Below are positions 12,001 to 18,000 of a stretch of DNA of 64,000 nt, one piece after another (within the stretch, counting starts at the first letter, position 1; each line of letters begins with the position of its first letter). Where the stretch lies: assembly GCF_050320075.1 (NCBI RefSeq), contig NZ_CP190019.1; one strand, written 5' to 3'. The DNA is from Escherichia coli. GTDB taxonomy: Bacteria; Pseudomonadota; Gammaproteobacteria; Enterobacterales; Enterobacteriaceae. Made by a program: the position numbers.

Positions 12001-15000
12001 TTTCAGCCAGCGGACCAACCGCGACCATCGATGCATCGGGGTGCGCGCTGCGCCGCGCGCCGGGGGCTTGAACCAGAAATTGATTCAGCAGGCCGAACCC
12101 ACGGTAAGTCCCGGCTGTTGCGGGATCGAACGGCAGCCAGGTACGGCGGGCTTCGTCATCCAGCCGAGCGCCATTCAGAGTCTCCTCGTAGGGTGATCGG
12201 TCCCACGACGCGTATCCCATCACAGTGCCAGTCGGCCCAACCGCGGAGCGTAACGCGGCAACGACCGTCTCCGCTCCTCCTTCGACCGGACCAATCGCTT
12301 TAAGTGAGGCATGCACCATCAAGAGGTCACCGGTTTGGACTCCGAGTTTTTGAAGCGCCTCCGTTATTGCCTTCCGCGTATGCATCGCGATATCTCCTCT
12401 AAACTGCAAAACACTATACGCTGATGAATCCCCTAATGATTTTGGTAAAAATCATTAAGTTAAGGTGGATACACATCTTGTCATATGATCAAATGGTTTC
12501 GCGAAAAATCAATAATCAGACAACAAGATGTGCGAACTCGATATTTTACACGACTCTCTTTACCAATTCTGCCCCGAATTACACTTAAAACGACTCAACA
12601 GCTTAACGTTGGCTTGCCACGCATTACTTGACTGTAAAACTCTCACTCTTACCGAACTTGGCCGTAACCTGCCAACCAAAGCGAGAACAAAACATAACAT
12701 CAAACGAATCGACCGATTGTTAGGTAATCGTCACCTCCACAAAGAGCGACTCGCTGTATACCGTTGGCATGCTAGCTTTATCTGTTCGGGCAATACGATG
12801 CCCATTGTACTTGTTGACTGGTCTGATATCCGTGAGCAAAAACGGCTTATGGTATTGCGAGCTTCAGTCGCACTACACGGTCGTTCTGTTACTCTTTATG
12901 AGAAAGCGTTCCCGCTTTCAGAGCAATGTTCAAAGAAAGCTCATGACCAATTTCTAGCCGACCTTGCGAGCATTCTACCGAGTAACACCACACCGCTCAT
13001 TGTCAGTGATGCTGGCTTTAAAGTGCCATGGTATAAATCCGTTGAGAAGCTGGGTTGGTACTGGTTAAGTCGAGTAAGAGGAAAAGTACAATATGCAGAC
13101 CTAGGAGCGGAAAACTGGAAACCTATCAGCAACTTACATGATATGTCATCTAGTCACTCAAAGACTTTAGGCTATAAGAGGCTGACTAAAAGCAATCCAA
13201 TCTCATGCCAAATTCGGCACTGTTGCAAAGTTAGCGATGAGGCAGCCTTTTGTCTTATTCAAAGGCCTTACATTTCAAAAACTCTGCTTACCAGGCGCAT
13301 TTCGCCCAGGGGATCACCATAATAAAATGCTGAGGCCTGGCCTTTGCGTAGTGCACGCATCACCTCAATACCTTTGATGGTGGCGTAAGCCGTCTTCATG
13401 GATTTAAATCCCAGCGTGGCGTTGATTATCCGTTTCAGTTTGCCATGATCGCATTCAATCACGTTGTTCCGGTACTTAATCTGTCGGTGTTCAACGTCAG
13501 ACGGGCACCGGCCTTCGCGTTTGAGCAGAGCAAGCGCGCGACCATAGGCGGGCGCTTTATCCGTGTTGATGAATCGTGGGATCTGCCACTTCTTCACGTT
13601 GTTGAGGATTTTACCCAGAAACCGGTATGCAGCTTTGCTGTTACGACGGGAGGAGAGATAAAAATCGACAGTGCGGCCCCGGCTGTCGACGGCCCGGTAC
13701 AGATACGCCCAGCGGCCATTGACCTTCACGTAGGTTTCATCCATGTGCCACGGGCAAAGATCGGAAGGGTTACGCCAGTACCAGCGCAGCCGTTTTTCCA
13801 TTTCAGGCGCATAACGCTGAACCCAGCGGTAAATCGTGGAGTGATCGACATTCACTCCGCGTTCAGCCAGCATCTCCTGCAGCTCACGGTAACTGATGCC
13901 GTATTTGCAGTACCAGCGTACGGCCCACAGAATGATGTCACGCTGAAAATGCCGGCCTTTGAATGGGTTCATGTGCAGCTCCATCAGCAAAAGGGGATGA
14001 TAAGTTTATCACCACCGACTATTTGCAACAGTGCCGGCGGAACTGCTTATCCACACCCTGACTGAGCGCGTAGCTATAACTGAAGGCCATCTTTTCCGGG
14101 TGGCTTTTGCGATATTTTTTCAGCTCAGTCAGGCTGCTGAATTCCAGGACGTCCCACTCTTCCCCGGTGTTTTTTTTCTTCCCGGCAACAAGAAGCGTGT
14201 ACGACGCGGTGTTAACGTGGATATTTCGGGTACTCATCCTGCTTTCTCCTCTCTCTGGTTTTCAGCCCCCATCATCTGTTGAGTTTCGGGAGCCGCGGTT
14301 TTGACGTTTTGCGGGGACCTGCTCTTTGTTCCCTCCGGTATTAACCATCACCTGTTTGAGAACCTTCGCCGCAAGGGGCATCACTGCCACGGCCGGAAAC
14401 GACTGTCCGGGGGCAGACCGCAAAAGTTTTTGCCTGCTTCTGGGCAAAAAGTTTTGCGGGATGTGCATTTCACCCCTGGACTGGCGGAGACGGTTGTGGC
14501 TGTCTATGCCCCCGGCGACAGGGGCTTAAACAGGTGAATGGCAGCGGACACAACAACGGGCAGGGACCCGCCGCAACGACGTGAAGCGCGGTTTGCGAAA
14601 CTGCGTTGCGCCTTACATCCCTGCGGCCTTTTGCTGGGATGCCTGGAGCGCAGGCCACGGCGCGACAGAGGCGGCGCGACCGGAACGGTCGCTGCAAGCC
14701 CGGGGTTTTCACGCATCGGACCGTAGCGACAGCCCGAAACCGCGCCAGCGGGTTCGGCGGAGACTGGCAGGTGCGCCAGCAGCTGCCTGTCGGAGTCGGG
14801 CCTGACGACCGGATGCCGCCAGGCAGCCGGGAGCCGAAGGTGCGCGTGCGACAGGAAGTCGCTTAACGTATTGTTTTACATTGATAAAACCAGCTATCCC
14901 ATTAGCTGTAGCCTACCGGGACAGGCGCTGCCGGCAACGGCGGGGTCTGAAGCTCCCGGGACAACGAGAGCCGGGCGTCAGCCCGGGTAAAGCCCCGTGA

Positions 15001-18000
15001 GGGGCTTTACCTTGCTGCAAGCATCATGTGGCAGGAGAGCAAGGCTGGTCAGAAGGGTTAACACATGTGAACTGTTGATAAACACCGTTATCGGCAACAG
15101 GCCAAAGATGCTGACAGGCCTGAACCAAAAGGTACGGGGTCCGGTTGCTACCTCGCGCACAGGGAGCACATGGGCGCAGAGACCCCCGGTGAAGAGACAG
15201 AACCCGCCCTGACCCTCTGTATGTTAAGCGGAACCTGGTAAACCCGTATCGCTGCCTTACAGGCAGGTGAACCGTAAGGAACACTGTAGGCGGTGCGGGC
15301 AGAGGAGGACGGAAAAAGCAAATGCCCGGTTGTAATGACCGGGATACGGGGCAGGTTCCCCGACGCGAAAGCGGGCAGACTTCCGTCTGGTCTTTAATTG
15401 CATGAAAAGCTGTAAAGCAGTCAAAAGGATATCAGCGAGATGAATACACACATCAGTGTGTCCACGATACCCCACCCGACAGGCTGGCACACCATAGACT
15501 GGAAAGCATGCCATGCCCGGGTGCGAAAGCTACAGTTACGGATTGCAAAGGCAACCCGACAGCAACAATGGCGGCAGGTCAGAGAACTACAGCGCATCCT
15601 CACCCGCTCATTCTCCGGCAAAGCCGTGGCTGTCAGGCGTGTAACTGAAAATACCGGTAAAAGGACACCCGGTATTGACGGAAAAATATGGCACACACCG
15701 AAGGAGAAATGGGAAGGAATATGCAGCCTGAATCTGTGTGGTTACAGGCCACAGCCACTACGGCGAATACATATCCCAAAATCAAACGGCAAAACGCGAC
15801 CGCTGGGCATACCCACAATGAGGGACCGGGCCATGCAGGCACTGTGGCTGCTGGCTCTGGAACCCGTATCCGAGACCACTGCTGACCATAACAGCTATGG
15901 TTTCAGACCAATGCGCAGCACGCATGACGCCATTGAGTCCATTTTTCTGCGGATGAGCCAGAAAGTATCGCCCAAATGGATACTGGAGGGCGATATTAAA
16001 GGGTGTTTCGATAACATCAGCCATGACTGGCTGCTTTCCCATATTCCGATGGACAGGAGACTGCTTAAAAAATGGTTGAAAGCAGGTTACATGGAAAGAG
16101 GCGTGTTTAACCATACGAACAGCGGGACACCGCAGGGAGGCATCATATCCCCTGTTCTCGCCAACATGGCTCTGGACGGACTGGAGAAGGAACTGATGCA
16201 AACGTTCAGGAAAAGTGGTTATCACAGTGCAAAGCACCAGGTGAATTATGTGAGATATGCTGATGATTTCATCTGTTCAGGCAGCTCCCGTGAATTGCTG
16301 GAAAATGAGGTCAGACCACTGATTGCAGCTTTCATGCGCGAACGAGGGCTGGAACTGTCGGAAGAAAAAACCGCGATTACACATATAGATAAAGGCTTCG
16401 ACTTTTTAGGGCAGAACGTCAGGAAGTACAACGGTAAAATGCTGATTAAACCGTCGAAGAAAAACCTGAAGAACTTCCTCTGTAAAGTCAGAGAAATAAT
16501 TAAACGCAATCCGACGCTCCCGGCATGGAAACTGATAGGCCAGCTAAACCCGGTAATCCGGGGATGGGCTACCTATCACCGACACGTCGTGGCGAAAGAA
16601 ACATTTAATTATGTCGACACCCAAATCTGGCGAGCTATATGGCGATGGTGTGTAAGAAGGCACCCCCGAAAAGGATTGCGGTGGATCGCCGGACGATACT
16701 TCTCCTTTGAAGGCAGGCGCTGGATCTTTAAAGCCATAACCCCGGAAGGGAAAATTCTGACTCTCTTCCGGGCAATGGAAACACCGATAAAGCGCCATAT
16801 AAAAATCAAAGGCGAAGCAACACCATACACCCCCGGAATGGAAATCTACTTTGAACGTCGTCTGGATCTAATCTGGAAAGGCAAATCAAAGAAGATGAAG
16901 ACAGTAGTTCAACTCTGGAAGAGGCAGGGGAAACACTGTCCGCAGTGCGGACAACCCATAACCAACCAGACCGGATGGAATATACATCACCGGATCAGGA
17001 AAGTTATGGGCGGCAGTGACGAACTGACCAATCTCGAGTTGTTACATCCGAACTGCCACCGACAGTTACACAGCAGGGAAGCCGGTGCTCACCGAAAGCA
17101 CTTATAAAGGCTTGAGCGGAGTGCGGGGAAACTCGCACGCTCCGTTCTTAGGGGGCGGCGGCGCAGCAATGTGCCGCTGCTACCCGACCCGGCAGACAGA
17201 ACAACACTGCAGTAGTCAGAATCAGAGCAGTAGATAAAGGAACAACAACATCAGGAACAGTTCCATAACATAAGAAAGAAACACTCCTGAGTCAGACACA
17301 TCACAGACGGGAAGGGTAACGGGCGACGCGCCAGCGTGGCCCGCTTCCCTTCCGGCAGGCGTCAGCCTGCCAGGGGTTTTCGCGCGGGCTGACAGGCGGC
17401 CTCCACCGCCTGCCCCTGTATCACCTGTTTATGCTGCCCTGAAGGATGTAGTGACCGCCGAGGAATACAGCCTGCTGATTCGCCACAAAATCGCAGATTT
17501 CATCAACAATCTGCGCAGTGGTGAGCGGTTTCTGCCCCATTTCACGACGCCGCGCATTAATCACGGCTTTGTAATTGCGCAGAATTTCGCGGGTTTCTGT
17601 GCTGATATTCATGACATGTGCTCCCCGTCCAGCGCCTGTAACACAACGTCCATTGCTTCGCGTTCTTCCCTGACGAATGCGTCACCGTCGCCCCCGTTCT
17701 CGCTCCCGACGGCATACAGGCGCTTCATTTCACTGCCTGCCAGCGCCATCACTTTTTCCAGCATCACCGCCGGAACTGTCACCTGACGGCTGGCGCGCTT
17801 TTCTTCCATCAGCTCACGAACAACGTCGTGAACAATGCTGACATCCGCACCATGCGCAAAGGCATCGTCCAGTCGCTGCATGACGGTTTCCAGCTCATCG
17901 TCTGTCAGACTCCAGTCCTGGGCTATGTGACGCACATCCCCACGGGTCAGCACCACGGCAAAAACGCATTCACTGTCCGGCACGTCTGTGTTCAGCACTT

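What the first reader, a model, noticed from the sequence alone, without database searches (positions are those of the whole stretch)
14846..17185. Group II intron with RT-maturase-HNH protein in the plasmid leading region
A full intron-encoded protein (555 aa) and a textbook domain V hairpin (AGC triad, GAAA loop) are present, so the intron is probably mobile. It sits in the first DNA to enter a recipient during conjugation, next to an IS26 junction and about 400 bp from a long hairpin. Its splicing state could affect expression of flanking leading-region genes.
Basis: partly seen in the sequence, partly recalled or inferred. Interest (0 to 1): 0.45.

Follow-up and report, generated by a model that had tools for sequence, protein, structure and literature searches.

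The report
Known mobile intron beside plasmid ssDNA promoter
This is an intact, already described mobile group II intron (a self-splicing retroelement) that repeatedly lands at one spot next to the single-strand promoter of F-type and I-type resistance plasmids; it is real but ordinary, and it points the wrong way to control its neighbouring genes by splicing.

Summary
The intron spans window 14846-17188 (2343 bp, GTGCG...GAC), not 14846-17185. It has a full ribozyme by Rfam matches and prediction, and an intact 555-aa RT/maturase/HNH protein under purifying selection.

It is the 2,343-bp intron already published as a lineage marker of FII-33 (pHN7A8-type) plasmids. It occurs in about 1,000 PLSDB plasmids and 313 of 5,426 complete E. 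coli genomes. A 99.1% variant is the reference match cited for an intron that formed new junctions on an IncI1 plasmid in an evolution experiment.

What I add: exon-binding sites (EBS1 15155-15160, EBS2 15091-15095) match the flanks and three ectopic chromosomal sites. The homing site lies 230 nt beyond a 94.9% homologue of F ssiD/Frpo, the "long hairpin". It marks the edge of a block shared by IncF and IncI1.

The intron is antisense to every neighbouring leading-region gene, so splicing cannot regulate them. Its sense strand is the transferred strand.

In the near-identical plasmid p14406-FII, this leading-region fragment is cut by IS26 and lies about 112 kb from oriT, so it is not the first DNA to enter.

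Novelty: already known. Interest: low to moderate.

The parts
14846..17188 (+). Complete group II intron, 2343 bp, GTGCG...GAC
   Evidence: Boundaries come from empty-site comparison and from the Rfam RF00029 alignment ending at 17188. The length equals the published 2,343 bp.
14890..15039 (+). Part of ribozyme domain I matched by Rfam group-II-D1D4-7
   Evidence: RF02012, 119.7 bits, E = 1e-24, full model 1-151.
15091..15095 (+). EBS2 (UCGGC), pairs with IBS2 GCCGA at -13..-9
   Evidence: It lies in a predicted loop. The complementary exon positions are conserved at three ectopic sites, while -8 and -7 vary. The assignment is an inference.
15155..15160 (+). EBS1 (GCGCAC), pairs with IBS1 GTGCGC at -6..-1
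   Evidence: 6/6 complementarity, duplex dG -11.1 kcal/mol against a random mean of -4.3. In the L006 variant, C15156G matches a -2 G>C change in its exon.
15243..15395 (+). Predicted domains II (15243-15299) and III (15301-15395)
   Evidence: MFE fold of the ORF-deleted intron gives the six-domain wheel. Prediction only.
15440..17107 (+). Intron-encoded protein, 555 aa, in domain IV: RT, maturase (X), HNH endonuclease
   Evidence: Pfam RVT_N, RVT_1, GIIM, HNH. TIGR04416 385 bits. 6ME0_C E = 1e-178 over residues 12-553. YADD and HNH motifs can be read in the translation. Synonymous:nonsynonymous codon changes of 19:7, 18:2 and 10:3 against variants.
17114..17147 (+). Domain V (AGC triad, GAAA tetraloop, 2-nt bulge)
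   Evidence: RF00029 alignment and MFE fold.
17151..17185 (+). Domain VI with bulged branch-point A at 17182, six nt before the 3' end
   Evidence: MFE fold and RF00029 alignment.
14832..14845 (+). 5' exon recognition sequence: A-14, IBS2 14833-14837, IBS1 14840-14845
   Evidence: Comparison of occupied, empty and ectopic sites.
17189..17189 (+). IBS3 (+1 C)
   Evidence: C at +1 in all six site types examined. EBS3 was not located.
14266..14615 (+). Not part of the intron, but it defines its homing context.
   Evidence: 94.9% identity over all 351 nt of D90178.1 on the + strand (sequence taken from PMC11541004 supplement). ssDNA fold -178 kcal/mol, z = -11.5.
14645..14839 (+). Conserved extension between the Frpo hairpin and the insertion site, shared by IncF and IncI1
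   Evidence: 97% identity to R64 and pCFS3313-2, where the hairpin itself is below 80%. Homology ends 6 nt before the insertion point.
13216..14035 (-). IS26 copy that truncates the leading-region fragment on its oriT-proximal side
   Evidence: 820-bp repeat shared with five other copies in the window. Transposase ORF 13268-13990. Terminal inverted repeat read at 14022-14035.

Best explanation
The feature is an intact, currently mobile bacterial group II intron of the chloroplast-like/IIB1 kind. It is the same element already reported on FII-33 and other IncF and IncI1 plasmids.

1. A + strand transcript through the site folds into the six-domain ribozyme.
2. The 555-aa protein translated from domain IV binds the ribozyme and helps it splice.
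3. The lariat-protein particle finds DNA carrying A-14, GCCGA (-13..-9), GTGCGC (-6..-1) and C+1 by pairing with EBS2 (15091-15095), EBS1 (15155-15160) and an unlocated EBS3.
4. The RNA reverse-splices into that strand. The HNH domain nicks the opposite strand, and the RT copies the intron into DNA.

The natural homing site is the outer edge of the conserved block that carries the Frpo/ssi single-strand promoter in plasmid leading regions. It lies on the transferred strand, 230 nt beyond the hairpin and upstream of its transcription unit. The insertion is therefore in non-coding DNA, antisense to all neighbours, and probably near-neutral for the plasmid. In this window the copy sits in a relic FII-33 leading fragment that IS26 has cut away from oriT.
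For: Anatomy:
- Rfam matches for domain I and domains V-VI.
- A six-domain MFE fold with the bulged A at 17182.
- All four protein domains are intact.

Exact boundaries come from empty sites.

Target rules:
- EBS1 6/6 and EBS2 5/5 with the flanks.
- The same exon positions are conserved at three independent chromosomal sites (at the end of rfbK, within a neutral zinc metallopeptidase gene, and within gntU), while -8 and -7 vary.
- A variant with an altered EBS1 has a matching exon change.
- Duplex energies are -11.1 (F-type site) and -9.8 (I-type site) against -4.3 +/- 2.5 kcal/mol for random 9-mers.

Activity:
- Purifying selection on the ORF.
- 984 plasmids carry a near-full copy.
- 313 of 5,426 E. 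coli genomes carry one, with 49 chromosomal places.
- An identical intron allele sits in IncF and IncI1 sites.
- Published new junctions arose at the homologous IncI1 position in two replicate populations (PMC10104558). That paper's supplement cites pCFS3313-2 as the reference match for the intron protein. pCFS3313-2 encodes the same protein accession as L007 and L008.

Context: ssiD/Frpo identity 94.9%, and the orientation of neighbours.
Against: - No splicing or mobility assay exists for this exact copy.
- No sigma-70-like promoter was found on the + strand upstream, so the source of intron transcription is unknown.
- Covariation support for the fold is negligible: the five variants are about 99% identical, with one compensatory pair and 95/500 shuffles as good.
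- The IncI1-type site has a poor IBS1 in the canonical register (1/6 pairs) and needs a 1-nt register shift that I only infer.
- An empty near-cognate site (-4 G>A) persists on the same plasmid.
- EBS3 and the subclass-specific RNA motifs were not mapped.
Confidence: 0.9

Rival explanations
1. The intron acts as a splicing-dependent switch for leading-region genes. Unspliced RNA would block expression of flanking genes and spliced RNA would restore it.
For: It lies between two groups of leading-region genes and next to their single-strand promoter. Ll.LtrB is known to reduce expression of its host relaxase gene (PMC6003770, abstract listed).
Against: The intron is on the strand opposite to every neighbouring gene, in the window and in all related plasmids inspected. 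Antisense intron RNA cannot splice. The Frpo-type promoter lies between the intron and the genes it drives and reads away from the intron. Only a polar or spacing effect on read-through from the upstream genes remains possible. Plasmids with and without the intron are both conjugative (PMC8765060).
Confidence: 0.04
2. The copy is an immobile relic. It would be intact-looking but silent in this position, carried passively by a successful plasmid lineage and spread only by plasmid recombination.
For: No + strand promoter was detected. Most copies are 100% identical and sit at one site in clonally related FII-33 plasmids. An empty near-cognate site on the same plasmid has not been filled.
Against: The same element sits at at least three different Frpo blocks: upstream of ygeA-type genes, of ssb, and of the DUF3560/methylase module. 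It also sits at the IncI1 block and at three unrelated chromosomal sites that obey the EBS/IBS rules. Movement during a 15-day experiment has been reported. The ORF shows purifying selection. The unfilled site carries an IBS1 mismatch that drops the duplex energy to -5.2 kcal/mol.
Confidence: 0.05
3. The intron interrupts a genuine small protein gene (the '77-aa ORF' or yffB of earlier annotations), and its biological effect is loss or splicing-dependent rescue of that protein.
For: Two papers describe the site as inside an ORF. A + strand ORF of 86-88 aa crosses the site in F-type plasmids.
Against: The region is GC-rich, with overlapping ORFs on both strands. PGAP annotates no gene across the empty site. 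F-type and I-type sequences diverge completely from 6 nt upstream of the insertion point, so no common C-terminus exists. No promoter was found.
Confidence: 0.05

Closest known systems
The 2,343-bp group II intron of pHN7A8 / FII-33 (F33:A-:B-) plasmids (PMC8765060, PMC6052338), and the 'putative group II intron' of IncF and IncI1 ESBL plasmids (PMC10104558)
   Same: Same element. The length and backbone position are the same. Plasmids from that paper's intron-positive FII-33 set (for example CP031720, CP036306, CP038003) match the intron and its flanks over 2,801 bases at 99.8%. The reference plasmid for the IncI1 case encodes the 99.1% variant.
   Different: Nothing structural. Those papers used it as a lineage marker or noted a new junction. 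They did not report its class, its exon-binding sites, or its relation to ssiD/Frpo.
EcI5 (E. coli pO157; CL/IIB1; highly active retrohoming)
   Same: Same host species and plasmid family, with an RT-X-HNH protein. Both have IBS2 at about -13..-9, IBS1 at -6..-1, and an invariant A at -14, which in EcI5 is the IBS2a partner. A probable EcI5 copy also lies in an F-type leading region.
   Different: Only 55.8% protein identity. No megablast-level DNA similarity. Different target sequence. The pO157-like copy is in the sense orientation relative to its neighbours.
TeI4h / Th.e.I3 family of Thermosynechococcus (PDB 6ME0; CL/IIB1)
   Same: Best solved relative of the protein: E = 1e-178, aligned end to end, including the HNH region.
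   Different: It comes from a thermophilic cyanobacterium. TeI4h has a 5' U and YAGD in place of YADD. This intron has the canonical GUGCG start and YADD.
Ll.LtrB (Lactococcus; IIA; in the relaxase gene of a conjugative element)
   Same: A mobile intron tied to conjugative DNA, with an RT-X-En protein. PGAP names this protein 'ltrA' by analogy.
   Different: Different structural class (IIA/ML). It sits in the sense orientation inside an essential transfer gene and must splice. Protein similarity is much weaker (E = 6e-46).

Membership tests
Group II intron (ribozyme) | 5' GUGYG and 3' AY termini at the exact junctions with host DNA | tested here: met
   GTGCG at 14846 and ...GAC ending at 17188. 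Both junctions are fixed by two kinds of empty site.
Group II intron (ribozyme) | Domain V: about 34-nt hairpin with AGC triad, 2-nt bulge and GNRA loop | tested here: met
   17114-17147. RF00029 60.1 bits against a gathering score of 40. MFE fold.
Group II intron (ribozyme) | Domain VI with a bulged branch-point adenosine 7-8 nt from the 3' end | tested here: met
   A17182 is bulged in the predicted helix 17151-17185 and is the seventh nt from the 3' end. Prediction and model alignment only.
Group II intron (ribozyme) | Domains I-IV arranged around a central wheel | tested here: inconclusive
   RF02012 119.7 bits for part of domain I, and an unconstrained MFE gives the wheel. However, covariation is uninformative: one compensatory pair and 95/500 shuffles as good. 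The structure was also derived from this same sequence.
Group II intron (ribozyme) | EBS1/EBS2/EBS3 complementary to the flanking exons | tested here: met
   EBS1 6/6 and EBS2 5/5. The exon positions are conserved at ectopic sites, and there is one EBS1/IBS1 covariation. EBS3 was not located; only the invariant +1 C was seen.
Group II intron (ribozyme) | Self- or protein-assisted splicing with lariat formation | not testable with these tools
   Needs RT-PCR or in vitro splicing.
Mobile group II intron (retroelement) | Intron-encoded protein in domain IV with RT, X/maturase and (for En+ lineages) HNH domains, with active-site motifs intact | tested here: met
   RVT_N, RVT_1, GIIM, HNH. TIGR04416 385 bits against a cutoff of 300. 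YADD and the CxxC...HH...N...CH pattern are read in the translation and aligned to 6ME0_C.
Mobile group II intron (retroelement) | Site-specific retrohoming plus rarer ectopic retrotransposition | tested here: met
   Evidence is indirect. 1012 plasmids share the same 5' junction. The intron occupies several Frpo blocks and IncF and IncI1 backbones. Three ectopic chromosomal sites obey the pairing rules. New junctions were published from an evolution experiment. No assay was run here.
Chloroplast-like (CL) / IIB1 class | IEP groups with CL-lineage RTs | tested here: met
   The best solved relative is the TeI4h-family protein (E = 1e-178), which its authors class as CL/IIB1. The next relative, a probable EcI5, is 55.8% identical. 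No phylogeny was built.
Chloroplast-like (CL) / IIB1 class | IIB1 RNA features: EBS3 in the coordination loop, EBS2a-IBS2a pair, subdomain pattern | not tested
   Only the invariant A at -14 is consistent with an IBS2a. The RNA motifs were not mapped.
Frpo/ssi single-stranded-DNA promoter (left flank, not the intron) | Sequence homology to characterised Frpo/ssiD and a long imperfect hairpin on the transferred strand | tested here: met
   94.9% identity over 351 nt to F ssiD on the + strand. ssDNA fold z = -11.5.
Frpo/ssi single-stranded-DNA promoter (left flank, not the intron) | Promoter and primer activity in single-stranded form | not testable with these tools
   Shown for F Frpo1 and Frpo2 by others (PMC9849209), not for this copy.

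The most novel reading that the evidence does not exclude
The intron may be specialised for conjugation. Its homing site is the edge of the multi-copy Frpo/ssi block, on the transferred strand. Intron particles made from a resident plasmid could therefore reverse-splice into the incoming single-stranded T-strand. They could then use complementary-strand synthesis as the primer, independently of the endonuclease.

This would explain three observations:
- the jump into a newly arrived IncI1 plasmid;
- its presence on both IncF and IncI1 backbones;
- its tolerance of two different IBS1 sequences through a one-nucleotide register shift.

A corollary is that the Frpo promoter, once double-stranded, faces the intron and might supply its sense transcript.
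Probability: 0.2. Interest if true: 0.55.

Novelty: already known. Interest (0 to 1): 0.25.

Why it matters
As an element it is routine. It is annotated as ltrA in hundreds of records and is used in the literature as a sublineage marker for FII-33 resistance plasmids.

Its practical value is in three areas:
1. Exact boundaries and target rules for plasmid typing and assembly curation.
2. The recognition that its homing site is a conserved, multi-copy sequence next to the Frpo single-strand promoters of IncF and IncI1 plasmids. At least 5,000 plasmid records carry that sequence and about 1,000 of them are occupied (the count of site-bearing records is capped at 5,000).
3. A corrected reading of this window: the intron-bearing 'leading region' is a displaced relic, not the entry end of the plasmid.

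If the intron does exploit single-stranded entry, it would be a natural system linking retrohoming to conjugation in Enterobacteriaceae.

Tried and rejected
- Covariation test of the predicted fold on five natural variants. It was uninformative because the variants are about 99% identical, so it is not used as support.
- Search for paralogous copies of the target block inside the window. None was found; the multi-copy nature only appears in other plasmids.
- Sigma-70 promoter scans for a + strand promoter feeding the intron. Nothing convincing was found. The idea that double-stranded Frpo supplies it remains an untested inference.
- Low-threshold Rfam search of the flanks for any known RNA. 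Only the intron families matched.
- Test of whether the site lies in a real gene. ORFs overlap on both strands and there is no conservation across IncF and IncI1, so I treat the site as non-coding.
- Canonical-register pairing of EBS1 with the IncI1-type exon. It fails (1/6 pairs). I replaced it with a register-shift model (6 pairs plus one mismatch, -9.8 kcal/mol), which is an inference.
- Identity with EcI5. Rejected: 55.8% protein identity and no DNA-level match.
- Strand bias of the three chromosomal insertions relative to replication. I judged this from my knowledge of the K-12 map as two lagging-template and one leading-template. That is too few to mean anything.
- Literature search for 'group II intron + IncF + retrohoming' found nothing. 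I could not find this intron's name in the Zimmerly nomenclature.

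
Full report
**1. What is in the sequence**

Rfam places two group II intron models on the + strand. RF02012 (a domain I segment) matches 14890-15039 at 119.7 bits. RF00029 (domains V-VI) matches 17112-17188 at 60.1 bits over the full model.

Between them, ORF 15440-17107 encodes 555 aa. It carries RVT_N, RVT_1, GIIM and HNH domains and scores 385 bits on the NCBIfam equivalog for group II RT/maturases. It aligns end to end (residues 12-553, E = 1e-178) with the protein of the Thermosynechococcus TeI4h-family intron, PDB 6ME0. YADD and the HNH/zinc-finger residues are visible in the translation.

An unconstrained fold of the ORF-deleted intron gives the classical six-domain wheel:
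- Domain II: 15243-15299.
- Domain III: 15301-15395.
- Domain V: 17114-17147, with the AGC triad, a GAAA loop and a 2-nt bulge.
- Domain VI: 17151-17185, with a bulged A at 17182.

**2. Exact boundaries**

An intron-less F-type plasmid (NZ_CP045828, locus L001) reads ...GCCGAAGGTGCGC|CCGGCAGACAG... across the site. The intron is therefore 14846-17188, GTGCG...GAC, 2343 bp. The Rfam DV-DVI alignment also ends at 17188.

**3. It is already known**

Hawkey and colleagues describe "a 2,343-bp group II intron" in the pHN7A8 backbone. They use its presence or absence to define FII-33 sublineages, and plasmids with and without it are both conjugative (PMC8765060). Other F33 papers list it as a variable backbone feature "downstream of ycjA" (PMC6052338 and PMC10654068).

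Megablast with the intron alone gives the following counts:
- 1,069 PLSDB plasmids match, 984 of them with a near-full copy, almost all at 99% identity or more. They are mainly E. coli and Klebsiella.
- 313 of 5,426 complete E. coli genomes carry a near-full copy, with 563 plasmid and 49 chromosomal places.

PGAP annotates the ORF as ltrA.

**4. Evidence that it moves**

(a) Target rules. EBS1 (15155-15160, GCGCAC) is perfectly complementary to exon positions -6..-1 (GTGCGC). EBS2 (15091-15095, UCGGC) is complementary to -13..-9 (GCCGA). Both lie in predicted loops.

Three unrelated chromosomal insertions were examined:
- at the end of rfbK: GAGCCGGTGGTGCGT|C;
- in a neutral zinc metallopeptidase gene: GAGCCGAAAGTTCGT|C;
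- in gntU: AAGCCGAGGGTGCCT|C.

These keep A-14, GCCGR, GTNCNY and C+1, while -8 and -7 vary freely. The gntU copy is a 98.5% variant whose EBS1 hairpin has been replaced (GCGCAC to GGACAC). The C15156G change matches the -2 G>C change in its exon, and its stem shows a compensatory G-C to A-U change.

(b) Several homing sites. The same intron is found upstream of ygeA-type genes (the window), upstream of ssb (L008, L009) and upstream of a DUF3560/methyltransferase module (L007, L012). It is also found in the IncI1 plasmid pCFS3313-2, between yffA and ssb.

(c) An experiment. [quoted passage not shown] This happened in two replicate populations, at the position occupied in a sister plasmid (PMC10104558). 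The paper's supplement cites pCFS3313-2 as the reference match for the intron protein and places it next to ssi3, "homologous to Frpo". The pCFS3313-2 copy is identical to the IncF copy in L007 (0 differences) and 99.1% identical to the window copy.

(d) Selection. Codon differences among variants are mostly synonymous (19:7, 18:2, 10:3).

**5. The homing context**

The left flank 14266-14615 is 94.9% identical over all 351 nt to F plasmid ssiD (D90178.1). That is one of the reference Frpo/ssi sequences used by Samuel et al. (sequence from PMC11541004 supplement). As single-stranded DNA, the + strand folds into a hairpin of about 330 nt (z = -11.5).

Frpo elements are single-strand promoters that drive early leading-gene expression from the incoming T-strand (PMC9849209; PMC11541004).

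The intron's 5' end is 230 nt beyond the ssiD homology. The intervening 195 bp (14645-14839) are 97% identical between IncF and IncI1, although the hairpins themselves are below 80%. The homology stops 6 nt before the insertion point:
- F-type plasmids continue GTGCGC|CCGGCAG.
- I-type plasmids continue TGGGCG|CAATAAAAG.

The intron thus recognises the conserved edge of the block through IBS2 and A-14, and presumably through distal protein contacts. It also tolerates two IBS1 sequences.

In the canonical register the I-type exon pairs at only 1 of 6 positions. Shifting by one nucleotide, so that C15154 pairs with G-1, gives six pairs with one mismatch and -9.8 kcal/mol. The F-type site gives -11.1, and random 9-mers give -4.3 +/- 2.5. 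This register shift is my inference.

A junction probe shows that 1,012 plasmids carry the exon-intron junction.

**6. Orientation and consequences**

All leading-region genes around the intron are on the - strand. The intron and its ORF are on the + strand, in the window and in every related locus examined.

The leading genes are transcribed from the T-strand as template, and ssiD matches the + strand. The + strand is therefore the transferred strand, and the intron's sense strand equals the T-strand.

Two consequences follow:
- Transcripts of the neighbouring genes contain antisense intron and cannot be spliced. The adjacent Frpo unit starts between the intron and its genes and reads away from the intron. 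At most there could be a polar effect on read-through from the upstream genes.
- The DNA strand that the intron RNA invades is the one that enters recipients single-stranded. This is compatible with, but does not show, a conjugation-linked homing route (see the novel case).

No sigma-70-like + strand promoter was found. The candidate Frpo hexamers TTGAGA-N17-CATCAC at 14356-14384 face the intron in double-stranded form. This is a speculative source of sense transcript.

**7. Position in this plasmid**

The window matches p14406-FII (NZ_MN823988.1) at 99.98-99.995% identity over window 1-31639, the stretch compared. IS26 (13216-14035) truncates the first gene downstream of Frpo and replaces everything towards oriT with a resistance mosaic.

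In that plasmid, traM and oriT lie at 177.4-178.3 kb. They are followed by a different, ColV-type leading region at 1-6 kb. The intron lies about 112 kb further along the transfer direction, so it is not in the first DNA to enter.

That oriT-proximal leading region carries an empty near-cognate site with -4 G>A (GAGCCGAAGGTACGC|CC). Its predicted EBS1 duplex is weak (-5.2 kcal/mol), which may explain why it is unoccupied.

**8. Comparison with known families**

The protein's best solved relative is a CL/IIB1 intron protein. The nearest distinct E. coli relative (55.8% identity) sits in a pO157-like plasmid and is probably EcI5. The invariant A at -14 parallels the EcI5 IBS2a position.

I therefore file the element as a CL/IIB1-type mobile group II intron. 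The RNA subclass motifs and a phylogeny remain untested. It is not EcI5, and it is only distantly related to Ll.LtrB despite the "ltrA" label.

**9. Verdict**

The feature is real, complete and very probably active. It is also already described and mechanistically conventional.

What this analysis adds:
- corrected coordinates;
- the exon-binding-site assignment;
- identification of the neighbouring hairpin as an ssiD/Frpo homologue;
- the multi-copy, cross-incompatibility-group nature of the homing site;
- refutation of two contextual claims (first DNA to enter, and splicing control of neighbours).

Noticed in passing
window 14645-14839; L013 2551-2744; L011 43828-44021: A 195-bp non-coding segment between the Frpo hairpin and the intron site is 97% identical between IncF and IncI1 plasmids, although the adjacent hairpins are below 80% identical. 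Homology ends 6 nt before the insertion point. No Rfam match and no convincing ORF; function unknown.
   Followed up: partly
window 14262-14468 (- strand); L008 1917-2123: The 68-aa 'hypothetical protein' that PGAP annotates here lies entirely inside the ssiD/Frpo hairpin. In one record it is even named 'single-stranded DNA-binding protein'. It is probably an annotation artefact.
   Followed up: partly
L016 2481-2496 (NZ_MN823988.1, oriT-proximal leading region): The same plasmid that carries the intron also has an unoccupied near-cognate site with one IBS1 change (-4 G>A; GAGCCGAAGGTACGC|CC). The predicted EBS1 duplex is -5.2 against -11.1 kcal/mol.
   Followed up: partly
L011 (pCFS3313-2), L004, L010, against L007: An identical intron allele occupies two different exon contexts, GTGCGY|C (IncF) and TGGGCG|C (IncI1). 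The second context pairs with EBS1 only after a one-nucleotide register shift.
   Followed up: partly
L017 7971-9695 (CP041748.1, pO157-like plasmid): A second, distinct CL-type intron (574-aa protein, 55.8% identical; probably EcI5) sits at the far end of an F-type leading region. This one is in the same orientation as its neighbours.
   Followed up: no
window 14019-14237 (- strand) and 14022-14035: The first gene downstream of the Frpo homologue (a ygeA-position ORF, 95 aa in intact plasmids) is truncated by the IS26 end. IS26, not the intron, is what damages this leading-region unit.
   Followed up: partly
window 2383-3202, 4243-5062, 13216-14035, 25216-26035, 30819-31638, 32914-33733; 12466-12535: There are six IS26 copies in the window, and an IS10 RNA-OUT match next to one of them. 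These mark a heavily rearranged resistance mosaic.
   Followed up: no
window 46025-46113, 46917-47075, 47528-47713, 52651-52727, 61992-62077: Other Rfam gathering-level matches in the window are CopA, sok, AS-pc02, and antisense RNAs to traI and traG. All are consistent with an IncFII backbone.
   Followed up: no
L012 4593-6257 (NZ_CP101618.1); H116-H118; H2: Some copies of the intron are decaying: a frameshifted ltrA (2338 bp), and copies interrupted by IS3-family or IS26 elements.
   Followed up: no
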